Below, one piece after another: positions 50,667 to 64,000 of a stretch of DNA of 64,000 nt (the stretch's first letter is position 1; every line of letters begins with the position of its first letter). The stretch comes from Candidatus Woesearchaeota archaeon (GTDB taxonomy: Archaea; Nanobdellota; Nanobdellia; SCGC-AAA011-G17; GW2011-AR18). The stretch spans positions 47,819 to 111,818 of the forward strand of contig JAGVZG010000002.1 of the NCBI GenBank assembly GCA_018302765.1. The letters are read 5' to 3'. Position numbers and translations under genes: made by a program. The notes under the pieces were generated by a model. It ran no database searches, had not been told where the DNA came from, and saw only the letters and a list, made by a program, of their open reading frames with translations.

Positions 50667-51301
50667 TTATTTTCTAACCTTTACTGGACGTGACCCTAGA
50701 CTGGCATTCGAGTCAGTCGGATACCAGCCGCAGCCCAAGCCGACCCAGCCAGAATCAGCCCAGAACCCAGCGACAGCTCCTTCTCTTGGATTCCAATAAT
50801 ATAAATTACCATCAGTATTGTTTTGACGTGGCAATCCTTGTTGAGTTGCATGATCTAACCAATAATCTAAGTCTATTCCAGGTGTTTTATTGACTCTTAA
50901 ACAATCTTGTAATGGTTCTGTTACTTCTTCTGTAATTCCATCAGGTCTTATTTTATGATAAGTAACGTTCAAAGTCTTGCTAACTAATCCTGTCTTACTA
51001 AATTTCCCACCCAAAAATTCAGCTCTGTAAGGATATCTTTTAACCACAATACTATCAAAACCAATTTAGCTAAATAACTGCTTACCTTATTTCCATTGCC
51101 ATCATAAACCATATCACCACTTCTAAGCATTCTTAAAAATTTAGGAAACAATGGTAGCGGTAGCATAAAAGAATTTTCTAAACGCAAAGATTCATTAGTT
51201 CAGTCATAATTTTGCCCAAAATAAGCTAAAGGTAAAGAAACTAATAAATCTGGATGATCTTTTCCTCCCAATATCACAAAGTTCTCAAGTGATTGATCCA
51301 T
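50667..51301 (-). pseudogene. putative DGR target gene (C-terminal variable region), interrupted by an in-frame TGA and a 1-nt frameshift
   Basis: ATG at 51301 (MDQSLENF...), TGA at 51200-51202, frame change at the T4 tract 51057-51060, then ...GLP...YYWNP...AVAGFWADSGWVGLGCGWYPTDSNASLGSR. Confidence 0.7.
50688..50772 (-). repeat. DGR variable region-like repeat, copy 1
   Basis: 63/85 identical to 63916..64000; 53/85 G+C and only 9 A on the coding strand in an AT-rich genome. Confidence 0.75.
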
Positions 51302-51303
51302 TT

Positions 51304-52098
51304 TTACTTTTTATCCCAAACGTAATCAAACATTGTTCTTAATGCAGAAGAAAAAAATGGAGTATTTACCCAAATTCCCACGTCTGCGCTTTCATGAGTA
51401 TTTTTATCGTGATTAACCATAAACATTAAGTCTTTTCCATCAACTATGACAAATCTTGCATTTACATCAACATCTTTTACGTCTGCAAATTCAGACAATT
51501 CCTTGGCAGCTTCCTTTGATTTTTCTGTCTTTAGCGGGGCTGCAATCCTTATTTTAACTTTTTTATTGCTTAATTTCCTAAATGTGGTTTTCATACATTC
51601 AAGCTTTCTTACAATGCCATCAGTTGTAGTTGCTATAACAACTTCTTTTACTGCATTGTCTGCTAAATTCAATATATGATCATAAACATTATTTCTGCCT
51701 TTAAAACTACCAGCAATTGTGTTAGGATCTACGCTGTTTATTCCCTGAGTAAATAACAGGTTTAATTCATGAAAAACATCAGTAGTTTGAACTTCTTCTA
51801 TAGATTTTATTTCCCTTTCTGCCTTTTCTTGAACGTTCTTTTTAACCCTTTTAACTATTTCACTAGGAGATACAGCCAGGTACTTTATTGGCCTTCCTAA
51901 TTTCATTATGATAAATCCTTTTTTTTCCAAGCTTTCAAGAACGTCATAACTTCTGCTTCTTGGAACATTGCTCATATCACTAAGTTCGCCTGCTGTGGCA
52001 GTTCCTTTGCTAAGCAATGAAGTCCATACTTTTACTTCATAAATATTAAGATTAAACGTTGTTCTTAGCTTTTTTATTAAATCTTCATTTGCTACCAT
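51304..52098 (-). CDS. TrmB family transcriptional regulator
   Basis: LNIYEVKVW...ATAGELSDMSNVPRSRSYDVLESLEKKGF. Confidence 0.88.
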   Translation of the reverse strand: MVANEDLIKKLRTTFNLNIYEVKVWTSLLSKGTATAGELSDMSNVPRSRSYDVLESLEKKGFIIMKLGRPIKYLAVSPSEIVKRVKKNVQEKAEREIKSIEEVQTTDVFHELNLLFTQGINSVDPNTIAGSFKGRNNVYDHILNLADNAVKEVVIATTTDGIVRKLECMKTTFRKLSNKKVKIRIAAPLKTEKSKEAAKELSEFADVKDVDVNARFVIVDGKDLMFMVNHDKNTHESADVGIWVNTPFFSSALRTMFDYVWDKK

Positions 52099-52202
52099 TT
52101 TGCAACTACTTATTGGTAACGTAAAACCTATTTAAAGCTTTCGTTTGTTATCACTATATAGGGATCACTTAATTATAACTGAGAAAAACATTATTTGAGC
52201 AA

Positions 52203-53786
52203 TTACCTTTTAATCTCTGATTTTGCAAATTTTAAGCCCAGGTAACTAAGAACAAGCAATACCAAATTATATATAAACAGCTTTGTTATAAGAGTAATAA
52301 CCTTATCATAAGTAAAGCCCAAAATTAATATTTTCTTTAATAGCGCCTCAGATACAACAAAAGGATTGTACAATATAATTTCCTTGAGACGCAATGGTAT
52401 TGTTTCTAGCGGAAGTATTGTATTTGACAAGAATAAAGCAACAGCAATTATAACTAAAGATACTACACTTGCGCTTTCCTGAGATTTGGCAAAGTATCCT
52501 ATTGTTATGCCTAAAAGAATAAACATACTTGCAACAATAAAAAGCGGAATAACAGCATAGAGCATTGTTTCTAAGCTAAATCCTATTATTAATTTTAATA
52601 TTAAAGATATTACTACAAGATGAAATACTATTACAATTAAAGATGTTAGATAAGCACCTATAAGGAAGACACTTTTAGGAGTAGGAGTTATGGCATTTCT
52701 TAAGTAAGCATTTGACATTCTTTCGCTTAATACAAGATTAGAAGCAAGAAGCACACAAACAAACATAATTATCAATACTAAGAACGTAGAAAGGAATCTT
52801 CCTATGTGTGTTTCTTCAGTCTCTATTGTTTCAACGCTTGTCTTGATAGGACTTACTATACTTTCTGGATTAGTTACTGCTATATTGTTTATGTTGCCAA
52901 CAATCTTACCAATTGAATCCTTTAACAAAGTAGTTTGCACTATGTTATTATCTGCTGCTATAGGAAGTGTTGCTATATTGCCAGACAGCTCAGTTATCTT
53001 TGTTTTTGCAGCCAGCATCTGAGAAATTGTTGTATTAATCTGTGTTTCTATTGTTACTAATTTAGTATTTAAGCTCTGGACGTCTGAAGATGATATATTT
53101 GAAGAAGAATTTACTTTTGATATTTCATTCCTTAAGGCTACGGTATTAAAGCTGTCATAAGTAACTGTCAGATCAATAGCATTTGCGCTGCTTTGTAAAC
53201 TACCAGATGTTTCTTTTATCTTATTGCTATTTGAATTAATTATATTTAATAGTTCTGATCTCTTGTTAAGCTCGTCTTTTGTATTTGTCAGTTGTGTAAC
53301 AAGAACGTTTGTTAAGCTCAAACTTAGGTTCTCTGAAGTCTTGAGAATCTCTTTGTTTATGCTTGACATTATGTTATCAACAATATTAATTCTGGCTGGA
53401 TCAACATGAAATTCAATTGTGTTATTTGCGTTATTAGTTATCTGCATATTTGGAGAGAATATCAGGCAAGCATTAAGACTTCCTTCTTTAACGCCAGCAA
53501 TGCAATCTGTAGAATTGTCATTTTTTACAACAACGTAACCTTTTGCTTCAATTTTATCTATTACACTATTGCTTAATTCACTATAAGTTTTTGAATAAAC
53601 ACCTATATTTATGTCGTAAAAAGAGGAATTATTAAAAGCAAGCACAAGAAGAGACATTATAATTAATGGCCCTAGCATTATTGTGAATGCTGAGCTTTTA
53701 GAACGAAATACTGTTTTAAAATTCTTAATAAGAACAGCCCATATACTAATAAATAACTTGCCTGTGTTATTTCTTAGGTCTTTCAT
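52203..53786 (-). CDS. ABC-2 type transporter permease
   Basis: N-terminal TM, large extracellular helical region, C-terminal TM bundle with ER...R...TP motif. Confidence 0.8.
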   Translation of the reverse strand: MKDLRNNTGKLFISIWAVLIKNFKTVFRSKSSAFTIMLGPLIIMSLLVLAFNNSSFYDINIGVYSKTYSELSNSVIDKIEAKGYVVVKNDNSTDCIAGVKEGSLNACLIFSPNMQITNNANNTIEFHVDPARINIVDNIMSSINKEILKTSENLSLSLTNVLVTQLTNTKDELNKRSELLNIINSNSNKIKETSGSLQSSANAIDLTVTYDSFNTVALRNEISKVNSSSNISSSDVQSLNTKLVTIETQINTTISQMLAAKTKITELSGNIATLPIAADNNIVQTTLLKDSIGKIVGNINNIAVTNPESIVSPIKTSVETIETEETHIGRFLSTFLVLIIMFVCVLLASNLVLSERMSNAYLRNAITPTPKSVFLIGAYLTSLIVIVFHLVVISLILKLIIGFSLETMLYAVIPLFIVASMFILLGITIGYFAKSQESASVVSLVIIAVALFLSNTILPLETIPLRLKEIILYNPFVVSEALLKKILILGFTYDKVITLITKLFIYNLVLLVLSYLGLKFAKSEIKR

Positions 53787-53789
53787 TTT

Positions 53790-54722
53790 TTAATTTCTGC
53801 TATTTATATGCTCAAATATTACATCTAGTGATGGTTTTTTTATGTCTATATTAAGCAAATTATCATTACTATTACTATAATATTGATTGATTATTTTTAA
53901 TGTTGATTTTAGATCTTTTGTAAACAAATAAAGCGAATCTTCATGAGTATGGTGTTTTTTTATCAAGCCTGCAGTATTTAAACAATTAATCAAGTTTGCA
54001 TAATCCTGCAATTCTGTTTGAATTTTTATAAGTTTATGATTGGAGAAATTGACTTCCAGATTTTCAGGGCTGTCAAATGCAGCAGCTTTTTTATTATTTA
54101 ATATAAGAATCTTATTGCAAAGAGTCCTTATGTCTTCCAAAATATGAGACGATATTATTATTGTTGTTCCGCTGTCATTTACTTGTTTTATAAGATCAAT
54201 TATGTGCTTTCTCATTACATGATCCAGGTTTGCTGTAGGTTCATCTAACAATAATATTTCAGGATCGTGGATTAATGAGCATGCTATATCTAATCTTTTT
54301 TGCATTCCTACTGACAGGTTTCCTCCTAATACATGTCTTGCTTCTGTCAGTCCAAATGTTCTTAGAAGAATTTCTGTTCTTTCCTTGATATTATTGCCTG
54401 ACAAACCTGCAAGCCTTCCAAAATAAGAAATGTTTTCTATAATGTTTAATTTATTGTAAATAGAACTTTCCTGCACTGAGAAACCTATATTTTTTCTTAA
54501 GTCCAGATTCGACTTTGTTACGTCTTTAGATTTATAATAAATTTTTCCTGCTTCTGGTTTTATAAAACCTACCATTGTATTTAGTAAAGTTGTTTTGCCG
54601 CAACCGCTCTTTCCTATAACTCCAATTATTGAGCCTTCATCAACATCAAAATCAATGTTATCAAGAACGAGATGGTCTCCATACCTCTTAGTAAGTCCTT
54701 TCACCTCTAATATTTTTTGCAT
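53790..54722 (-). CDS. ABC transporter ATP-binding protein
   Basis: GKSGCGKT, LSVGMQKR, LLLDEP, SSH. Confidence 0.9.
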   Translation of the reverse strand: MQKILEVKGLTKRYGDHLVLDNIDFDVDEGSIIGVIGKSGCGKTTLLNTMVGFIKPEAGKIYYKSKDVTKSNLDLRKNIGFSVQESSIYNKLNIIENISYFGRLAGLSGNNIKERTEILLRTFGLTEARHVLGGNLSVGMQKRLDIACSLIHDPEILLLDEPTANLDHVMRKHIIDLIKQVNDSGTTIIISSHILEDIRTLCNKILILNNKKAAAFDSPENLEVNFSNHKLIKIQTELQDYANLINCLNTAGLIKKHHTHEDSLYLFTKDLKSTLKIINQYYSNSNDNLLNIDIKKPSLDVIFEHINSRN

Positions 54723-54804
54723 TGATTAATTAACATCAAGACTTATTTTTAAAGTTAACTGTCCAAATAAAAAGGCTTAAAAAATACAATAATTTGACTT
54801 TATT

Positions 54805-55653
54805 ATGAAGCATAATTTACGAGTTACATCAATCCTAATAATTTTGTTCTTAATGTCGCACGTATTGGGTCTTTTTGTCATAAAACATTACCTTCCAAAG
54901 GAAGAAAATCTGCCTTTGGGTATACAAAAACCAGAGTTTGAAGAGAGAACTTCTTATATTCCAATTATTATAGCGATATTTGCAGCAACTGTCATAGCTC
55001 TAGTACTTATAAAATTTGCAGCATTTAGAATATGGAAACTATGGTATTTAGCAAGCATTTTTATAACACTAATAATTTCATTTAATGCATTCATACCTGA
55101 AATGATTGCTTTATTTTTAGCAATAATATTTTCTCTGCTTAAAACATTCAGGAATGGTATTTTAATCCATAATTTTACAGAGATATTTGTTTATGGCGGT
55201 TTAGCAGCAATATTTGTACCTGTCCTAAGTGTATGGTCTATTTTTGTACTTCTTGTATTAATTTCAATTTATGATGTAATAGCTGTTTGGAAAACAAGAC
55301 ATATGATTTCTATGGCTAAATTTCAAATTAAATCAAAAATATTTGCTGGATTGTTTGTGCCTTACTCTACAAAAGTTCTAAGCAAAGGCTTAACTAAGAA
55401 AGGACAATACGGCAAAGAAATAAAAGTAAACGAAGCTGTACTTGGGGGAGGAGACATTGCCTTTCCTCTAATGTTTTCTGGAGTTATGTTGAAAATTTTT
55501 GGCTTTTCAGCTGCGATTATAACTTCTTTTACTGCAGCTCTCGCTTTAGCTATTTTATTTTTTATAGCTAAGAAAAAAAAGTTTTATCCTGCAATGCCTT
55601 TTATAACAACAGGCAGTCTAACTGGCTATTTCATAGTACTATTATTGTTTTGA
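54805..55653 (+). CDS. presenilin/signal peptide peptidase family aspartyl protease
   Basis: YD (ISIYDVIAVW), GGGD (LGGGDI) and PAMP motifs in a multi-TM protein. Confidence 0.88.
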   Translation: MKHNLRVTSILIILFLMSHVLGLFVIKHYLPKEENLPLGIQKPEFEERTSYIPIIIAIFAATVIALVLIKFAAFRIWKLWYLASIFITLIISFNAFIPEMIALFLAIIFSLLKTFRNGILIHNFTEIFVYGGLAAIFVPVLSVWSIFVLLVLISIYDVIAVWKTRHMISMAKFQIKSKIFAGLFVPYSTKVLSKGLTKKGQYGKEIKVNEAVLGGGDIAFPLMFSGVMLKIFGFSAAIITSFTAALALAILFFIAKKKKFYPAMPFITTGSLTGYFIVLLLF

Positions 55654-56154
55654 CCAGGCATGTATTGTTAGTACATTATAAGTTCCAATTGAACCATTAA
55701 TATCTGGACCTGTAATATCTGGCACTGTCAGCGTTATGTCTCTAATGTAAACATCCTTGTCTTTGGGAAGAGCAGTGTCAATAAATTTTTTATTTTGCTT
55801 TGATAGGTCTGATTCGGTTATTTTTGGATAGTAGTCACAACTTAATACTGTTGCATTGTAATTTATATTACATATTTCTATAGCATACTCCCAAGGGTGA
55901 GCTTCAACAGGAAATGATAGATAATCTATATATGTATTTATACAACTTGCATTGTTATTTATTACACACTGTCTAAATTTTGGATTATTCTGAACTTCTT
56001 TTAATACAGAATTTGTTGTTTGTTCTAAATTCGGAGGAATTTTAGAATTATCTTTTTGTTTTATTGGCGTTATTGATATTACAAATCCAAGAACTATTAT
56101 TATTGCAATTATTGCTTCCAATATTTTTAAAATCCCTTTTTTATTCATTACCAT
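55642..56154 (-). CDS. type IV pilin-like protein
   Basis: Class III signal-like MNKKG|ILKILEAIIAIIIV. Confidence 0.6.
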   Translation of the reverse strand: MVMNKKGILKILEAIIAIIIVLGFVISITPIKQKDNSKIPPNLEQTTNSVLKEVQNNPKFRQCVINNNASCINTYIDYLSFPVEAHPWEYAIEICNINYNATVLSCDYYPKITESDLSKQNKKFIDTALPKDKDVYIRDITLTVPDITGPDINGSIGTYNVLTIHAWSKQ

Positions 56155-57245
56155 GTTGCAATCCTCACCACAACAGGGACTCTAGTACTTTCTTCAGTCA
56201 GTATAAAACTGTTAAATTGCCTGATAAACACATTGGCATTTGGAGGCGGAGATATTTTTCCTGGAAATAATGCTGAAATATTTATTTGAGATCCTCCAAT
56301 AGGCAGGCTTTCTATCCTTATAGTAAAATCCCTAGATAATGGGAATTTCCACTTTTCTTTTATACAATCATAGCCTTTTGAACAGCCAGTTTCTAGTTCT
56401 GTCTGATTTAAAGTCAGAAAAGAAACCAGATCTATTCCTGATAATGTTTCTGTTACCCCCAGTTCATAAATTACAGGGCACTTTGATGCTACAGAACCCA
56501 TATAAGGCCAGTCACTTGAATCTTTTTTAGAGCATGCCAGATATCTTTTAACATTCTGAATTGTTATATTTGAAATATCAAAATTTATTGGCCTGTTAGA
56601 TGAACTAATAAGATATTTTGTTTTTAGCGGTTGTTTTGCAGTTGTATCTATAGGAGAATCTAAACGTGCAGGGATGCTTATCAAGCTGTCTGTTAAATTA
56701 TAAAGTATATCTCCTTCCCTATCAAAATCAGGAAGCTGGTAAAGCTCTCTTGTTTCGTCCAATAACTTCGGATCTATATCTTTGCATTTTTCTTCTTCTG
56801 TGCTACAAGCTATTTCAGATTTGTCCTTATTTTTATCTATGTTAAAATTTCCAGATAGTCTGTCATTTCTGTCTCTCTTTATGTAATATACTCTAATATT
56901 TATCTTGTCTTTTCCAGTAATTATTTTTGTAATGCCCTCAAAATCTGATGTCTGACAGCTACTAGAATCACACGAAATATTTATTTCTTTGCTTGCCAAA
57001 GTCACTACTGCTGGATTAGCTGTATTAGTTTCATTTGAAGGATACAAGAACAAAGGGGCTGTTGTTATTGACCATTCAGTATCATTATTAAAACCATCCT
57101 GAATTATATCAAGCAGTGTCTTGGAATCATACACTTTAGTTATTCCTGGCCTAAATATAACAAAAATAAAAACCACGCTTAACAAAAATAGACCTGTTCC
57201 AATTATCCAGTCTATTTCGTTACCTATGCCTCTTTTATTTAACAT
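56148..57245 (-). CDS. type IV pilin-like protein (long)
   Basis: Class III signal-like MLNKRG|IGNEIDWIIGTGLFLLSV. Confidence 0.55.
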   Translation of the reverse strand: MLNKRGIGNEIDWIIGTGLFLLSVVFIFVIFRPGITKVYDSKTLLDIIQDGFNNDTEWSITTAPLFLYPSNETNTANPAVVTLASKEINISCDSSSCQTSDFEGITKIITGKDKINIRVYYIKRDRNDRLSGNFNIDKNKDKSEIACSTEEEKCKDIDPKLLDETRELYQLPDFDREGDILYNLTDSLISIPARLDSPIDTTAKQPLKTKYLISSSNRPINFDISNITIQNVKRYLACSKKDSSDWPYMGSVASKCPVIYELGVTETLSGIDLVSFLTLNQTELETGCSKGYDCIKEKWKFPLSRDFTIRIESLPIGGSQINISALFPGKISPPPNANVFIRQFNSFILTEESTRVPVVVRIATW

Positions 57246-58167
57246 TATTATCTTTCTTCATAAAGTAGTAAGGAATTAATAAAATTAGTGATTGCTGAGG
57301 TTTTACTATTCCTGCAGCAGTAGTTATTATCAGATAACCTCCTATAACCATTATTAATGAATGCTTCAAGCCAGACTTGTAATCGCCTTCTGCAAATTTT
57401 CCAAGCATCAAGCCTGCAAATAAACCCTGAACTATTATTGTGGCTATGAATATTGAATCAAATGATATAGTACTCCCTCCACCCAGACCACTTATACCAA
57501 TAGTACCCAAACCTTGGCCCAATTCCCCACCTACAGTACCTAACTTAGGAATAAGATATACTTGAAGCACTATCATGATAAACACAAAGAAAAAATAAAT
57601 TATGTAACCTTGTATTGTCTGAGTATATGCATTGCTTTTTCTTTCTTCTTTTATTTTTTTAATCTCAAGAACAGAGCCCGTAACTGCCTCTAAAACAGAA
57701 CCAATATCTCCTCCACTTTCTTCAGCTTCTATAACTATTGCAATAGATCTTTTAACTACTGAATTATCTGTATCATTTGCAAATATTGTCAAGGCATCAT
57801 GCAAAGTATAGCCCCACTCAATTTGGCGCGCAAGTTTCTGGACATATGGCGTTAATGACCCGTAATTAACATTTGAGACATGAAGAATTGCTTGAGGTAT
57901 TGTTGCTCCAGACCTAACTGTTTCTACTAAGCTCCTAACAAATTCCAGGAATTTTGTTTCAAGCTCTTTTTGCCTTTTATTTTCTTCCATAAAATCTATT
58001 ATAAAAGCAATAGAACCTATAAGAGCACCTATAACAATAATCGGGCTAAAATACCAAACTTTTGGACCAATTGGAGATTTGAAACTAAAGAAAAATATTA
58101 TATCGATTATTACAATAACTATTCCTAAAATTAGACTTATGTAGTGTTTTATTTTAAGTCCCATCAT
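57235..58167 (-). CDS. TadC/GspF-type pilus platform protein
   Basis: FLEFVRSL...G, EAEESGGD; ATG at 58167 overlaps the upstream stop (ATGA). Confidence 0.8.
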   Translation of the reverse strand: MMGLKIKHYISLILGIVIVIIDIIFFFSFKSPIGPKVWYFSPIIVIGALIGSIAFIIDFMEENKRQKELETKFLEFVRSLVETVRSGATIPQAILHVSNVNYGSLTPYVQKLARQIEWGYTLHDALTIFANDTDNSVVKRSIAIVIEAEESGGDIGSVLEAVTGSVLEIKKIKEERKSNAYTQTIQGYIIYFFFVFIMIVLQVYLIPKLGTVGGELGQGLGTIGISGLGGGSTISFDSIFIATIIVQGLFAGLMLGKFAEGDYKSGLKHSLIMVIGGYLIITTAAGIVKPQQSLILLIPYYFMKKDNNVK

Positions 58168-59573
58168 ACTCCTTTTTGAGATATATTTACAAATACCATA
58201 AAACCTATGTTTAGCAAAGGCAATACTCCAAGTATTGATATCCAAGCTATTGTGACTACGCTTAGTCCGCCTAGATTTCCTCCTATTGAATTTATTATTG
58301 CCAATGTAACCAATAAAAGCAAAGGCGAGGCAATTAGTATTGCTGTGTAAACTTCTGAATACGTAGCTAAAGCTTCAACTTGTTTCTTTCTGTCTAACCT
58401 ATAAGTATTTAATGCGTCATATGATTTTTCCTTTAAGTAACTTCTTAAATCTCCTCCAGTTTCTATTGTTGAAATCATACCATTGAGCAATTCCTTAAAC
58501 TCTGGGCTTGGAGTTGTAGCTGCAACATTCTTTAAAGCATTTGTTAGATTATAACCAAATAAGTTTACATAATTCAGAATTTTTTTAATTTCTTTTTTTA
58601 ATTCAGGATATTCGTCAGAATCAGCTATTAATTCAAATATACTCATTGGATTTGCACCACTGCCAGCAACTGCACTCATGTGTACCAATGCAAATGGAAG
58701 TTCCAGTTTTATATTGCTTCTCTTGCCACCAATTAAACTTGAAGGATAAAAATAAAATCCAATGAAAGTCAAAATCATTCCTGCAAAAGATACCAATACT
58801 AACTTAAGTACACTAAGCTTAAATGCAAAATTCAAAGCCAAAAAAAACAAAAATATTCCTGGCAATGACAAAATTGTAAAAAATAACATCATACTTACAT
58901 AAGTTCTAGACAACAGTTCCATTTCAACCATCTTAAAATTATTAAACATAGGCTCGAAAAATTTCGGGTATTTTGTAACCAAAGCATCTGCATATTTTTT
59001 CATATACTTATTTGCTATTTCACCTACCTTGCTTGGTCTGTATATGCTGTAGTCTTGCTTTTCTATAGTAGTTTTTATTTTCCCTTTTTCTTTTTCTTTT
59101 TGCAGCTTTACGAATCTTTTCAGTTCCTCTTTTTTTATATTCAGTTCTTTTATGAATCTCTTTTTTTCTTCCTTAGTCAAATTTCTAAATTTTTTTGATT
59201 CAAAATCAGAAACTTCTTCTGGTTGCTGCAATGCTATTTTTGGCGTCTCCCTTTCCTTTGGCATAGTTACCTGTGGCTTTGGTAAAACCAATGGCTTCTC
59301 TATTTTTTCTATCTTGCTAGTTTGCTGCTTTTTCTGCAATGCCTGTAGCGGATTAATTATTTTATATATATTTGCGCTTTCACTATCTATTTTTGCCAAA
59401 AGATTTTTTCTCTTTAACAGTAGGTCATTTAATTGCTTTTTTTGAATTTGCGATAGAGATTTCACTTTTTTAAGCAAAGCCACTTGATTGTCTATTACTT
59501 TTATATTTTCTATTAAATCAAGTATATTCTTAGCACTATTAACTATTTCATTTGGCATTTTTTTCTTGCTCAA
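58164..59573 (-). CDS. TadB/GspF-type pilus platform protein with charged N-terminal extension
   Basis: ELPFALVHMSAVAGSG, YVNLFG, IETGGDL. Confidence 0.8.
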   Translation of the reverse strand: MSKKKMPNEIVNSAKNILDLIENIKVIDNQVALLKKVKSLSQIQKKQLNDLLLKRKNLLAKIDSESANIYKIINPLQALQKKQQTSKIEKIEKPLVLPKPQVTMPKERETPKIALQQPEEVSDFESKKFRNLTKEEKKRFIKELNIKKEELKRFVKLQKEKEKGKIKTTIEKQDYSIYRPSKVGEIANKYMKKYADALVTKYPKFFEPMFNNFKMVEMELLSRTYVSMMLFFTILSLPGIFLFFLALNFAFKLSVLKLVLVSFAGMILTFIGFYFYPSSLIGGKRSNIKLELPFALVHMSAVAGSGANPMSIFELIADSDEYPELKKEIKKILNYVNLFGYNLTNALKNVAATTPSPEFKELLNGMISTIETGGDLRSYLKEKSYDALNTYRLDRKKQVEALATYSEVYTAILIASPLLLLVTLAIINSIGGNLGGLSVVTIAWISILGVLPLLNIGFMVFVNISQKGV

Positions 59574-59751
59574 CTATTTTGTGTAATGATGCTAGAAGGT
59601 ATAAAAATTGGTTTTTGAAGTTCTTAATATGTATTTCATATTTTTCTGCTTCTTCTGTTGAAGCAGTTTTTTTCTTGTTTAACAATTTTTCATAATTTTG
59701 CGCTACTTCTAATAATATTTCTGCATTCTGTTTTAATATTGCTATACTCAT
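59548..59751 (-). CDS. small hypothetical protein in pilus operon
   Basis: 67 aa, overlapping both neighbours. Confidence 0.5.
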   Translation of the reverse strand: MSIAILKQNAEILLEVAQNYEKLLNKKKTASTEEAEKYEIHIKNFKNQFLYLLASLHKIVEQEKNAK

Positions 59752-62700
59752 ATTATTCCAAACCTCTTTAATACTATTTCCGGAGACTTATAATATTCAT
59801 GTATTACTGCCTGAACTTGCTTAAATCCTATAATGCCTCTTCTGTATAATTCTTTAATAAGCCTGGTCCTTATCTTAAATTCATTGAGAACTTGTTCTTT
59901 TGTAAACCCATAATGCATTGATATTTTTTCAAATACCTTGCTATTTGGATTAAATAAAAAAGTATCTGTTTTTGGATTCCATTTGAATACATTATTTGTT
60001 ACTTCCCCACCTAAGCCTTCTTTTACTTCAACTACTTCATCAACGCTTGCTACTTTTCTTACTTCCTTTCCTTTTATTTTGCTTTGAGACATTACAACAA
60101 CAGCAGATAATGTTTCAATTAAAGATCCTGACAGATTAATTGGCTCTGTTTCTAATCTTTTGATTAACGTACCTACATCTTCTGCATGCATAGTTGCCAT
60201 ACCAGGATGCCCTGAATTATGTAATAAAACCAAGCCAAATCCACCTATAAAGTTCTGGTTATAAGGTATTGATATGTCATAAACATATTCAGGTTTATCT
60301 AAATGTAAAACTTCTATACTTCTTACTTTATCACAATATAAATCACCTAATAAATTTTTATCAACAATTCCTTTAGTAATATTACATGTTTTACCTATTG
60401 GTTTTACATATTTTAATAATTCCTCTTTTTTATAATTTGCATAAAAATTTATTTCGTAATCAGTTGTTTTTCTTCCATCTCTATTTCTTTTTGAAATAGA
60501 AGCCACTATTCCATAAACTAATAATAATTGTGCTACCCCATTAGCAAGACTTTTTGAAGTTGTATAATAACTAATTCCTTTGTCTCTTAAATTACCATCA
60601 CCACAATATAATGCACTTAAAAAAATACCAATTCTCTTTTTATCTAATCCAAAGATAAAATCTGGAATTAATTTTTCTAGTTTTGTTTTGCAATATTTTT
60701 TTATAAATTCATAAATTATTTTATTATTAAATGACAATTCTATTGCTTCTCCATAACCGCCGTCTATAATTCTTCTTGATGGCTTTCTATTTACCAATTT
60801 TACAATACATTCTTCCATATTTTTTAACACTTCTTCATTACCATTATATAATTCAATTCTATAACATCTTCTACTTGTATTCAAAGAACCTTCAGATAAA
60901 TAATAACCTAATAATTTTAATAAATAATCATCAATTTCTAAAAATGGTTCTCTTTTTTCACTCATTCCATCATATTTTATTTCTAATTTATCAATATTAT
61001 AACCAATACATGCTTCCTTCATCAATTTAAAGAATTTTTCTGCTTTCAATGCATTAGGTTTAGAAACTATCCCCTGAGAGCAATAATCGGTTATGCTCTT
61101 GCAATTTACTATAACATTAGATTGATAATATCCTAATTTATGTAATGCTTCTTTTATAAGTTCAGGAGCATATATTCTTAGATTAGGAAGCCATTCTAAT
61201 AAATTTATTTTTTCTATATTATTGTATCCACATGGAATATTTGCAGGTATTATTATATTACTTCCAATAACTAGTTCTTCTCCTTTAATTTCTTTTATCT
61301 CTTGATTTTCAAAAGTAAATACTGAGTGGTCTGCTGTAATTGTAATTTCTCTTCCAGTTCTCGTTTTTATTTTGTATAAAATATTTCTTTTTGGATGTTT
61401 TATCCAAGATTTTATCGGTAATATTTCACATTTCTTCTCTTTAATATTATAAGTAATTGCTTTTAATTTTGTTATGTCTTCATTTTCTAAATTTTTTATT
61501 TTTATTCTTAATGGTCTATTTTCCTTTATTATTAATATCTCTTCATCTCCTCTTACTGAAGCAAATGCTTGAAATAGTACAAATGCTTCTTTGCCTCTAA
61601 CTTCACCTACAATAATATAATCTGGTCTTTGTCTGAAGCTTGCTCTAAGAAGATCAAATAGACTTACTTCCCCATATCTTTGGCCTACCAAGTTTGTCAA
61701 ACCTACGCCGGCTCTAGCAACACTCGGCAACCAGTTTTCATGCTCTAATTGTAATTCTCTCGTGTCTTCAATGCTTACGACTCTTGCTTGTGGGGGAATA
61801 AAGAAAGCAAGAGTATTAATAAAAGAGGTTTTGCCACTACCAGTTCCGCCAATAACCATCATGCTATTTTCATATTCTACTGCCATCCATAAGTAGGCAT
61901 AAATTTCTGCACTGCAAGTACCTTTTATCATTAACTGTATCGGGCTCCATGGTTCTTTTGTAAAACGCCTGATACTCATAGTTGGCCCTCGTGTAGTTAC
62001 ATCTGTTGAGTAAGTTGCTTGGACTCTATCACCGCCTGGTAAACTTCCGTCTAACAATGGTTCAGCATAACTAATATATCTTCCGCATTTCTGTGCTAAT
62101 TTTTCAACAAAGGCAGCTAATTTGTGTATGTCTTTGTAAACCAAATTAGTTCTTATATTTCTATATTTTCTATGAACAATATATATAGGTGTGTTTATTC
62201 CATTACATTCTATATCTTCTACAAAGTAATCATTCATTAAAGGCTCTAATTCATTTAAACCAACAAAGTCCCTGTAAATATAATACATTATTTTAACAAA
62301 TGACTCTGTAGACAATTCTATGGAAAGTTCTGTGAGAAGCACTCTAATATTTTTTTCAAGATAAACTAGAATAGTATTTTTATCACTTACACTTATAAAA
62401 CTTAAATTAATTAATTCTTTAATTCCTTCTTCCAAAGTCTCTAGAATTTTCTCTTCTTTGTCTGTTAATTGCGGCTCTTCTATTTCGTAAACTAATTCTG
62501 TTTCTTTTTGATCCCATCTGATTCTAGCAAATGCATAAGGTGGTATTAAAGGATATTTGACGTCAATAGTTCTTTGATCTTTGGCTTCTGGCAAACTTGG
62601 GATTGTTGGCTGCTCTATTTTGAAAAAAAGTTTTGCATCTTTATTTATATTGTTTGTAGTATTCTCTTCCTTTACTTGTTGTTTAGAGTCTTGTTGTGGC

Positions 62701-62777
62701 ACTGGAAGAGCTGGCTGTATAGGCTTCTGCTCTTCATTTTTAGAACTATCTTTTTTTAATGAACTAAATAATCCCAT
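59748..62777 (-). CDS. VirB11/FlaI/TadA-type secretion ATPase containing an intein
   Basis: Walker A GGTGSGKT, IEDTREL, RQRPDYIIVGEVRG, SGH...TMHA split by a 448-aa insertion. Confidence 0.9.
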   Translation of the reverse strand: MGLFSSLKKDSSKNEEQKPIQPALPVPQQDSKQQVKEENTTNNINKDAKLFFKIEQPTIPSLPEAKDQRTIDVKYPLIPPYAFARIRWDQKETELVYEIEEPQLTDKEEKILETLEEGIKELINLSFISVSDKNTILVYLEKNIRVLLTELSIELSTESFVKIMYYIYRDFVGLNELEPLMNDYFVEDIECNGINTPIYIVHRKYRNIRTNLVYKDIHKLAAFVEKLAQKCGRYISYAEPLLDGSLPGGDRVQATYSTDVTTRGPTMSIRRFTKEPWSPIQLMIKGTCSAEIYAYLWMAVEYENSMMVIGGTGSGKTSFINTLAFFIPPQARVVSIEDTRELQLEHENWLPSVARAGVGLTNLVGQRYGEVSLFDLLRASFRQRPDYIIVGEVRGKEAFVLFQAFASVRGDEEILIIKENRPLRIKIKNLENEDITKLKAITYNIKEKKCEILPIKSWIKHPKRNILYKIKTRTGREITITADHSVFTFENQEIKEIKGEELVIGSNIIIPANIPCGYNNIEKINLLEWLPNLRIYAPELIKEALHKLGYYQSNVIVNCKSITDYCSQGIVSKPNALKAEKFFKLMKEACIGYNIDKLEIKYDGMSEKREPFLEIDDYLLKLLGYYLSEGSLNTSRRCYRIELYNGNEEVLKNMEECIVKLVNRKPSRRIIDGGYGEAIELSFNNKIIYEFIKKYCKTKLEKLIPDFIFGLDKKRIGIFLSALYCGDGNLRDKGISYYTTSKSLANGVAQLLLVYGIVASISKRNRDGRKTTDYEINFYANYKKEELLKYVKPIGKTCNITKGIVDKNLLGDLYCDKVRSIEVLHLDKPEYVYDISIPYNQNFIGGFGLVLLHNSGHPGMATMHAEDVGTLIKRLETEPINLSGSLIETLSAVVVMSQSKIKGKEVRKVASVDEVVEVKEGLGGEVTNNVFKWNPKTDTFLFNPNSKVFEKISMHYGFTKEQVLNEFKIRTRLIKELYRRGIIGFKQVQAVIHEYYKSPEIVLKRFGII
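60216..61559 (-). mobile_element. intein (448 aa) with LAGLIDADG homing endonuclease
   Basis: Starts SVRGDEEI, block B TADHSVF, LLGYYLSEG and FLSALYCGDG, ends VYDISIP...LLHN followed by Ser+1; extein joins as LFQAFA|SGHPG. Confidence 0.9.
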
Positions 62778-63006
62778 ATTACCTCTTTTATTCTTATATT
62801 AAAGTATATATTTTTATTTATTAATTTAACCTTATTGTTAAGTCAAGTTTTTGTTAAATTTTTACTTAATTTATAATAATATACCCATAAGTAAGACATA
62901 TTATAATATTTAGTATAAGAACTATTTTTGATTTTATGATTAATAACTATTTATTAGTAGTAAATAATAGAAACCTTTTAATACTTATTATCAATGGATT
63001 CTTTAT

Positions 63007-63819
63007 ATGATAAATCTAGAAGTAGAACTAAATGAAGGATTTAGAAGAATTAAAGACAGAGGATGGCTTCATAATTCCTCAACTAGCCATATTCACACCA
63101 ATGACATAAACCTTGGCAGCGCAATTGAAACTGCAAGATATCGTATTAATCTTATTGATGGTCTGTTAATTAAACCAACAGTAGGGATTATTGTTGGAAC
63201 TGGTGGACTATTATCTATATGTCCTGAATTGCCAGTAGATATTTGGCTAGTTTGTGATAATAATAAATTTGTTTTAGATTGGGTTGATCAAGCTAAGTAT
63301 GCAACAAGAATTGCGACAAGATTAGATGATTATTTAAGGATTGTATATGTTGAAAATCTGCAAGCAACCCAAGGTTATGCTGAAAGTGGTTTAAGGAACG
63401 AAAAAATAAGTTTAGGAAAATACCACCTAACTAAAGATGAAGACAGATTTCAACTTGTAAAACAATCTGCTAGACATATTTCTATTGTCAGATGTGAAGG
63501 AGATTTAAGAGATAAAAAATTTTCAAGAGAATTTGGAGAAATATTAAAGAAACAAAGACTAAGTATATCTTTTGCAAATTTAACAAATGTCTATGAACAT
63601 GCACCAGGAATATATGAAAGTTTACCAAATCTTCCATTTAGAGATTGCGCAGTTTTTATATGGTCCAACAGGACATTTGGTAAATTTTTAGAAAGTGAAG
63701 TTATATATGGACTAGATAATTATTTAATGCATGCAGGAGCAGCTTATGCTCAATTCATTAATGGTTTTAAAAATCCACCAGCTCTAAAAAAATTCTTACA
63801 AACTCATATATATAAATAA
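63007..63819 (+). CDS. hypothetical protein (possible Rossmann/SAM-binding-like fold)
   Basis: IIVGTGG followed by LVCD; no firm assignment. Confidence 0.5.
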   Translation: MINLEVELNEGFRRIKDRGWLHNSSTSHIHTNDINLGSAIETARYRINLIDGLLIKPTVGIIVGTGGLLSICPELPVDIWLVCDNNKFVLDWVDQAKYATRIATRLDDYLRIVYVENLQATQGYAESGLRNEKISLGKYHLTKDEDRFQLVKQSARHISIVRCEGDLRDKKFSREFGEILKKQRLSISFANLTNVYEHAPGIYESLPNLPFRDCAVFIWSNRTFGKFLESEVIYGLDNYLMHAGAAYAQFINGFKNPPALKKFLQTHIYK

Positions 63820-63861
63820 TATATAAAAAATTTTAAATATTGTAGCTAAAGAAAAATTATG

Positions 63862-64000
63862 TTATTTGTATTTATTATTTTTTAGCAATAAACTATTGCC
63901 TAAAATTTTTGCGCGACGTACTCCGAGATCGTCATTCGAGCTAGTCGGATTCCAGTCGCAGAACAGGTGAACACAATAAGAATCAGCCCAGAACCTAGCG
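63862..64000 (-). CDS. 3' end of a second putative DGR target gene (5' part beyond window)
   Basis: Manual translation ARFWADSYCVHLFCDWNPTSSNDDLGVRRAKILGNSLLLKNNKYK-stop. Confidence 0.7.
   Translation of the reverse strand, partial: ARFWADSYCVHLFCDWNPTSSNDDLGVRRAKILGNSLLLKNNKYK
63916..64000 (-). repeat. DGR variable region-like repeat, copy 2 (may extend past window edge)
   Basis: 63/85 identical to 50688..50772; 43/85 G+C. Confidence 0.75.

What the first reader, a model, noticed from the sequence alone, without database searches (positions are those of the whole stretch)
50688..64000. Two dispersed DGR-like variable regions: multi-target diversification acting in trans
Seen: 50688-50772 and 63916-64000 (both minus strand, both at gene 3' ends) match at 63/85 nt with no gaps. 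17 of 22 mismatches are at codon positions 1-2, mostly in NNC/NNT codons (ggc/cac, ggc/ttc, ggc/gac, tat/aat, gac/agc, gcc/gac, agt/gat), while tgc, ccg act, tcg aat and cgt are invariant. Both are GC-rich; copy 1 has one A in its first 49 nt and four GGC codons. Known: DGRs mutate template-repeat adenines, so AAC/AAT codons vary at positions 1-2, and are reported in DPANN. Inference: a template resembling ...aac ytg aac tgc aac ngg aat ccg act aac tcg aat aac aat cta gga... lies elsewhere and diversifies at least two remote paralogous targets. A few C/T differences suggest two related templates or drift.
Basis: partly seen in the sequence, partly recalled or inferred. Interest (0 to 1): 0.85.

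Follow-up and report, generated by a model that had tools for sequence, protein, structure and literature searches.

The report
Orphan DGR variable regions, archaeal genome
The two look-alike stretches are the tail ends of two related lectin-fold genes that carry the scars of a targeted-hypermutation system (a DGR). The only template for that system in this small groundwater archaeon's genome writes three other genes, not these two, so these look like leftovers rather than live targets.

Summary
Window 50688-50772 and 63916-64000 (both minus strand, both gene 3' ends) match at 63/85 without gaps. Both are strongly depleted in adenine.

- Both stretches belong to a family of at least 7 C-type-lectin-fold DGR target loci.
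- The genome has a real DGR on another contig, C26: a template repeat (TR) followed by a reverse transcriptase (RT). Its TR fits three other variable regions (VRs; C26, C11, C24) with 10-15 adenine mismatches and 0-1 non-adenine mismatches.
- The two window copies show 8 and 13 non-adenine mismatches to that TR, 7 of them shared. That TR did not write them.
- I found no fitting template in the genome, 200 relatives, GTDB genomes, IMG/VR or JGI metagenomes.
- VR1 lies in a truncated, frameshifted pseudogene.
- VR2 lies in an intact gene present in two copies with identical VRs.
- Both are unchanged in every public assembly I could read.
- A second RT (C10) is a broken remnant. The intact-looking RT carries a premature TGA.

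Best reading (about 0.7): these are orphan, fossil VRs written by template variants that are now lost. DGRs with several remote targets are already known in DPANN archaea, so interest is low to moderate. Other first readers in this scan had already flagged DGR pieces of this genome on other contigs.

The parts
50688..50776 (-). VR1: variable-region-like tract, homologous to the template repeat TR1 on contig C26. It is adenine-depleted and has 8 non-adenine mismatches to TR1.
50667..51047 (-). 126-codon open frame holding VR1. It corresponds only to the last ~100 residues (261-356) of full-length family members.
   Evidence: no Pfam hit
51056..51307 (-). Decayed upstream part of the same gene. 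It corresponds to homologue residues 145-233, lies in a different frame and has an internal stop. The N-terminal ~144 residues are absent, and the TrmB gene abuts at 51304.
   Evidence: tblastn of the intact VR2 protein against the window; for TrmB
63916..64000 (-). VR2: variable-region-like tract cut by the contig end. It is identical over 99 nt to the start of contig C12 and has 13-14 non-adenine mismatches to TR1.
63862..64000 (-). Last 45 codons plus the TAA stop of the VR2 gene. The full gene (369 aa) is seen in other assemblies, e.g. L052:208-1317.
63902..63921 (-). 20-nt block directly 3' of the variable part. It is identical to the block following the three TR1-matched VRs (C11, C24, C26) and the C12 copy. 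It is not conserved after VR1.

Best explanation
The two stretches are orphan ('fossil') variable regions of a diversity-generating retroelement (DGR). They end two paralogues of a C-type-lectin-fold protein family that DGRs diversify in this archaeal order. In a DGR, an error-prone reverse transcriptase copies a template-repeat RNA, misincorporates opposite adenines, and the cDNA overwrites the variable region.

Shown here:
- The family has the lectin fold.
- The genome holds one DGR (TR at C26:366-445, RT at C26:527-1594) whose template fits three other paralogues by adenine-only changes.
- The two window copies carry adenine depletion and differ mainly at template-adenine columns. They also carry 8 and 13-14 non-adenine differences from that template, 7 of them shared.
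- VR1 is in a pseudogene.
- VR2 is in a duplicated intact gene with identical VRs.

Inferred:
- Both were written in the past by template variants that no longer exist in this genome. Their non-adenine states occur in templates of related DGRs.
- They have not been rewritten since.
- DGR cassettes turn over in this lineage and leave such relics behind.
For: 1. A-tolerant scan of the whole 1.02-Mb genome. TR1 on C26 fits the VRs on C11, C24 and the C26 start with 14/0, 10/1 and 15/0 adenine/non-adenine mismatches in 72 nt. VR1 gives 16/8 and VR2 gives 11/13.
2. The RT next to TR1 has RVT_1 (E 2.4e-20) with the GNLTSQ and YVDD motifs.
3. An AlphaFold model of the intact paralogue has pLDDT 86. 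Its domain 142-359 matches the DGR variable protein TaqVP best (Z 9.3, 188 residues aligned), then many C-type lectins, AvpA (5ioo) and TvpA (2y3c).
4. Adenine depletion in both copies, and differences concentrated at template-A columns.
5. All 8 non-A differences of VR1 from TR1, and 11 of 14 for VR2, are states present in TRs of related DGRs. No known TR fits either copy.
6. VR1's gene lacks ~144 N-terminal residues and has a frameshift and an internal stop.
7. The VR2 gene occurs with two upstream and two downstream contexts. Its VR is identical in all of them and in all 7 cluster members that reach it. VR1 is identical in every version that reaches it, on 38 contigs.
8. A second RT (C10:88629-89592) is 5'-truncated and frameshifted.
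9. The same-genus genome G156 has no DGR RT match at E <= 1e-20. It keeps a target-like gene directly upstream of thioredoxin, where this genome has VR-TR-RT-thioredoxin.
Against: - No read-level data were available. Assemblies give consensus sequences, so low-frequency VR variants would be invisible. The three VRs that do fit TR1 are equally static across assemblies, so stasis does not separate live from dead targets.
- The genome is in 28 contigs broken at 99-nt repeats.
- VR2 keeps the same 20-nt 3' block as the TR1-matched VRs and sits in intact genes. It may therefore still be competent for homing.
Confidence: 0.7

Rival explanations
1. VR1 and/or VR2 are live targets of a second DGR whose template and RT are missing from this 28-contig assembly. 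The cassette could sit in an unbinned contig, a virus or a plasmid.
For: - The DGR signature is strong.
- VR2 genes are intact and keep the conserved 3' block.
- About 43% of genomes in the order carry DGR RTs, several per genome in some.
- Related samples hold another intact RT, 84% identical, with its own TR.
Against: - No fitting TR was found in the genome at 84-nt or 36-nt resolution, in 41 loci of relatives, or in four pattern scans.
- The two VR2 copies are identical to each other and across samples.
- VR1's gene is broken.
- VR1 and VR2 differ at several columns that are non-adenine in every known TR, so one common template is unlikely.
Confidence: 0.15
2. The two stretches were never diversified by a DGR. 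Their similarity is plain paralogy, and the variable positions reflect ordinary divergence of a ligand-binding loop on a conserved lectin scaffold.
For: - The genes are paralogues with 64% nt identity upstream.
- The codon-position bias is not significantly different from the flanking sequence.
- An intact paralogue on C9 has an A-rich, unmutated-looking equivalent.
- Lectin-fold homologues outside DGRs are reported in Woesearchaeota (PMC5006420).
Against: - Adenine depletion with P about 1e-7 in a ~40% A coding context.
- 10 of 16 VR1/VR2 differences fall on the columns that are A in all related templates (Fisher p=0.0013 against TR1).
- Sister paralogues in the same genome are textbook adenine-only matches to a TR.
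Confidence: 0.08
3. TR1 on C26 does template VR1 and VR2, but with low fidelity, so non-adenine substitutions arise during reverse transcription or integration.
For: Non-A-to-N differences occur in 23% of DGRs, with up to 11 in one target, and are frequent in the CPR/DPANN set (PMC5758913).
Against: - Seven of the non-A differences are shared by VR1 and VR2, so they are inherited rather than independent errors.
- The same TR writes three other VRs with 0-1 non-A mismatches.
- The non-A differences are spread along the whole VR, so partial replacement does not explain them.
Confidence: 0.04

Closest known systems
DGRs of DPANN archaea and CPR bacteria from groundwater (Paul et al. 2015 and 2017, cited from my own knowledge; referred to in PMC5758913 and PMC8421398), and the archaeal variable protein AvpA (PDB 5ioo; PMC5006420)
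   Same: - Small groundwater DPANN-type genome.
- RT with GNLTSQ/YVDD directly after a short TR.
- No avd-sized ORF at the locus.
- Lectin-fold targets with the VR at the 3' end.
- AAY-rich template.
- DGR RTs in 87 of 201 genomes of the order.
   Different: - The two window copies have no matching template.
- One is a pseudogene and the other a duplicated gene with identical VRs.
- The target family has no Pfam model. Structurally it resembles AvpA no more than ordinary C-type lectins (Z 7.1 against 7-9).
Treponema denticola DGR with seven remote TvpA-type targets, and other DGRs with non-adjacent targets (PMC5758913)
   Same: One TR/RT serves several paralogous lectin-fold genes at remote loci. 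Here TR1 serves the C26 VR in cis and the C11 and C24 VRs in trans.
   Different: Remote targets are assigned only when differences are A-to-N with minor exceptions (PMC5758913). VR1 and VR2 fail that criterion.
Thermus aquaticus variable protein TaqVP (PDB 5vf4)
   Same: It is the best structural match of the family's C-terminal domain (Z 9.3, rmsd 4.2, 188 residues aligned).
   Different: 8% sequence identity, a bacterial host and a different N-terminal part.

Membership tests
DGR (whole system, in this genome) | DGR-type reverse transcriptase next to a template repeat | tested here: met
   C26:527-1594 has RVT_1 (E 2.4e-20) with GNLTSQ and YVDD. The TR ends about 80 nt upstream. It lies outside the window and carries one in-frame TGA at codon 49.
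DGR (whole system, in this genome) | TR/VR pairs that differ only at template adenines | tested here: met
   C11 14 A / 0 non-A; C24 10/1; C26 start 15/0, all in 72 nt.
Current target (VR) of the genome's DGR: window VR1 and VR2 | Differences from the TR restricted to adenines (minor exceptions allowed) | tested here: not met
   VR1 has 8 and VR2 has 13-14 non-adenine mismatches to TR1. No other TR examined does better than 8 and 9.
Current target (VR) of the genome's DGR: window VR1 and VR2 | VR at the 3' end of an intact target ORF | tested here: inconclusive
   Both lie at 3' ends. VR1's gene is truncated and frameshifted. VR2's gene is intact in other assemblies.
Current target (VR) of the genome's DGR: window VR1 and VR2 | Sequence variation of the VR within or between populations | tested here: inconclusive
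   No variant was seen among 7 VR2 proteins and 3 VR1 proteins from dozens of contigs. Assemblies are consensus sequences, and no reads were available.
DGR variable proteins with C-type lectin fold | CLec fold with the VR on the C-terminal strands | tested here: met
   The model of paralogue P0002 (pLDDT 86) has its C-domain matching TaqVP (Z 9.3), C-type lectins (Z 7-8.8), AvpA and TvpA (Z 7.1). Foldseek on the whole model gave nothing below E 0.01. The fold was tested on the family, not on VR1's fragment.
DGR (whole system) | Accessory protein Avd | tested here: not met
   There is no ORF of 60 aa or more between the VR and the RT on C26, and the gene after the RT is a thioredoxin. From my own recollection of Paul et al. 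2017, which I did not check here, Avd is not universal and many DPANN/CPR DGRs lack it.

The most novel reading that the evidence does not exclude
VR1 and/or VR2 are still rewritten by a template carried on a separate replicon (a virus, a plasmid or a partner organism's element) that is absent from the binned genome. That would be DGR targeting across replicons in a DPANN archaeon.
Probability: 0.06. Interest if true: 0.7.

Novelty: new member of a known kind. Interest (0 to 1): 0.3.

Why it matters
- It is a worked example showing that a DGR-like signature in a gene tail does not prove a live target. Membership needs the adenine-only test against a real template.
- It suggests that DGR cassettes in these tiny archaea are gained, broken and lost. 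This genome has one RT with a premature stop and one RT remnant, and the sister species has none.
- The lectin-fold targets persist as fixed genes or pseudogenes that preserve older template states.
- That is useful for annotation and for estimating how often DPANN DGRs are really active. It does not reveal a new mechanism.

Tried and rejected
- Second template in the genome. A-tolerant scans with 84-nt and 36-nt windows found only TR1, the VRs themselves and a paralogue on C9.
- C9 paralogue as donor. It was rejected by inspection of the alignments, which show mismatches at C9's non-adenine positions along the whole tract. These were not counted.
- RT remnant on C10 as the partner of a lost template for VR1/VR2. 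Its intact orthologues (540-566 aa, with a C-terminal extension) show no TR of this family within their loci. It probably served another target family.
- Templates of related DGRs (L024, L030, L032, L038, L048, L049, L053). None fits; the minimum is 8-9 non-A mismatches.
- Pattern scans. The first pattern gave 0 hits in metagenomes, 0 in viral contigs and 1 in genomes, which was the VR2 gene itself in another bin. The second pattern gave 1 metagenome hit (a TR of another organism, RT 60% identical) and 0 viral hits.
- Pfam on the target proteins gave no hit.
- Foldseek against PDB on the full model gave nothing significant.
- Codon-position bias as evidence was not significant.
- Alternative genetic code to explain the TGA in the RT was rejected. 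TGA closes 86 of 471 long frames.
Full report
**Observation**
- The two stretches are real. Window 50688-50772 and 63916-64000 (both read on the minus strand) match at 63 of 85 positions without gaps.
- The next best ungapped match of copy 1 in the window is 38/85.
- 17 of the 22 mismatches are at codon positions 1-2. Copy 1 has a single A in its first 49 nt and four GGC codons.
- Both lie at the 3' ends of minus-strand frames. One is a 126-codon ORF (50667-51047). The other is a frame cut by the end of the window, with its stop at 63862-63864.
- The window is G000:C5:47819-111818, so its end is a contig end.
- The codon-position bias alone is not distinctive. The paralogous 132 nt upstream give 29:18 against 17:5 (p=0.28).
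- Adenine depletion is distinctive: 6/68 and 11/68 A against 38% and 44% in the rest of each gene.

**A real DGR elsewhere in the genome**
- I laid out the 1.02-Mb, 28-contig, ~30% GC genome. I scanned it for any stretch that differs from a VR only where the stretch itself has A.
- This found a template repeat at C26:366-445. An RT gene follows it at C26:527-1594, with RVT_1, GNLTSQ and YVDD.
- About 270 nt upstream, at the very start of the contig, lies a VR at a gene's 3' end.
- Over 72 aligned nt, the VRs at the C26 start, C11:~915-1020 and C24 (minus strand) differ from this TR at 15, 14 and 10 adenines and at 0, 0 and 1 other positions.
- DGR-type RT matches occur only on C26 and C10. The C11 and C24 VRs are therefore remote targets. 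Multi-target action in trans is real for this element, at least historically.

**The window's copies are not written by that template**
- VR1 has 16 adenine and 8 non-adenine mismatches to TR1. VR2 has 11 and 13 (14 in the full-length gene from another assembly).
- Seven non-adenine differences are shared by VR1 and VR2. They are spread along the whole tract, so they are inherited states. They are not RT errors or partial replacement.
- VR1 and VR2 still behave like DGR products. In the first 72 nt, 10 of their 16 mutual differences fall on columns that are A in TR1 and in six TRs of related DGRs. Enrichment at TR1 adenines is significant (14/29 against 7/51, p=0.0013).
- All 8 non-A differences of VR1, and 11 of 14 for VR2, are bases found at the same column in templates of related DGRs.
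- No single template fits. The minimum is 8 non-A mismatches for VR1 and 9 for VR2.

**Search for the missing template**
- Finer scans of the genome with 36-nt windows found nothing new except a paralogue on C9. Inspection of the alignments shows C9 mismatching both copies at non-adenine positions, so it is not a donor.
- A second RT on C10:88629-89592 lacks about 145 N-terminal residues and is frameshifted. Its intact orthologues in relatives are longer enzymes whose loci hold no TR of this family.
- An intact RT that is 84% identical to RT1, from a related sample, has its own TR. That TR does not fit either.
- Two degenerate patterns built from the invariant parts of VR1/VR2 were scanned against JGI metagenomes, IMG/VR and GTDB genomes. 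They returned only the VR2 gene itself in another bin (L052) and one TR of a different organism (L053; RT 60% identical; 9 non-A mismatches to VR2).

**What the genes are**
- tblastn shows a family of at least 7 loci: C9 (intact, 360 aa), C11, C24, the C26 start, VR1, and two VR2 copies.
- The family has about 47 clusters in public data, all unnamed, and no Pfam domain.
- An AlphaFold model of the C9 paralogue has pLDDT 86, with the C-terminal domain above 90. That domain matches the DGR variable protein TaqVP best (Z 9.3), then many C-type lectins, AvpA and TvpA.
- VR1's gene is a wreck. Only homologue residues 261-356 are in the open frame. Residues 145-233 lie in another frame with an internal stop. 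The first ~144 residues are gone, with TrmB abutting. Its 3' flank has also diverged from the 20-nt block shared by all other VRs.

**VR2 is duplicated and static**
- The VR2 gene is intact (369 or 359 aa) but missing from the bin.
- The end of C5 and the start of C12 share exactly 99 nt. Shared 99-nt ends recur at contig ends across the assembly, which I take to be the assembler's word size.
- Other assemblies join the gene to two upstream contexts (C23 end, C16 start) and two downstream contexts (C5, C12), in all four combinations.
- So there are two copies whose ~1.1 kb, including the VR, are identical.
- All 7 cluster members that reach the VR share it. VR1 is identical in the three versions that reach it, seen on 38 contigs.
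- The three TR1-matched VRs are equally fixed across assemblies. Stasis alone therefore cannot separate live from dead targets.

**State of the DGR**
- RT1 has an in-frame TGA at codon 49. It is also present in an independent assembly. Homologues have Q, S or K at this site.
- TGA closes 86 of 471 long frames in this genome, so it is an ordinary stop.
- The same-genus genome G156 has no DGR RT match at E <= 1e-20. It has a target-like gene directly followed by thioredoxin, where this genome has VR-TR-RT-thioredoxin.
- Together with the C10 remnant, this points to gain, decay and loss of cassettes, with their targets left behind.

**Comparison with what is known**
- DGRs are abundant in DPANN and especially in Woesearchaeota (PMC8421398; 87 of 201 genomes of the order here).
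- Several targets and remote targets are documented, and they are assigned only on A-to-N differences (PMC5758913).
- Archaeal variable proteins use the lectin fold, and lectin-fold homologues without a DGR exist in Woesearchaeota (PMC5006420).
- The system is therefore a member of a known kind. The window's two copies fail the defining test for current targets.

**Verdict**
- These are fossil VRs (confidence about 0.7). An unassembled second template remains possible (about 0.15).
- The organism label (Woesearchaeota-type DPANN) rests on the names of the nearest homologues and on earlier notes of this scan. It does not rest on a marker analysis of my own.

Noticed in passing
L005:671-673 (G000:C26): The only full-length DGR RT of the genome has one in-frame TGA at codon 49. 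An independent assembly has it too. Close homologues have Q, S or K there. Either the RT was recently inactivated or it depends on read-through.
   Followed up: partly
G000:C10:88629-89592 (-) (L010/L012): A remnant of a second DGR-type RT. It lacks about 145 N-terminal residues, has a frameshift, and carries a C-terminal extension seen in 540-566-aa orthologues of relatives. It sits directly after a MoxR-like ATPase gene, in the same frame behind that gene's TGA stop.
   Followed up: partly
L042:1363-2442 (-) (G000:C9:17862-18941): An intact paralogue (360 aa) whose VR-equivalent is A-rich and looks unmutated. It may never have been diversified, and it shows what the scaffold looks like without DGR action.
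   Followed up: partly
L059 (G156:C6:25910-29689): The sister species has a target-like gene directly followed by thioredoxin, with no TR or RT between. This genome has VR-TR-RT-thioredoxin at the same place. The cassette was inserted or deleted at a fixed site.
   Followed up: partly
L053:257-1583: In a related metagenomic DGR the template lies inside the 3' end of a 233-aa target-like ORF that ends 2 nt before the RT start. The template is therefore itself a gene-tail copy.
   Followed up: no
window 59748-62777 (-): A PilB/T2SSE-type ATPase interrupted by an intein with a LAGLIDADG homing endonuclease domain (Pfam). A similar intein-bearing ATPase precedes one VR2 gene copy (L054).
   Followed up: no
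G000 contig ends: Many of the 28 contigs end in shared 99-nt words. The three TR1-target genes and the two VR2 genes are near-identical repeats that break the assembly. Protein clusters show body/VR chimaeras (P0060, P0061) that may be assembly artefacts or recombination.
   Followed up: partly
G000:C24:7773-8929 (-): In this bin the C24 target gene carries a frameshift just upstream of the VR; read from the sequences, it looks like a deletion of about 10 nt. Other assemblies give an intact 385-aa protein with the same VR (P0003).
   Followed up: partly
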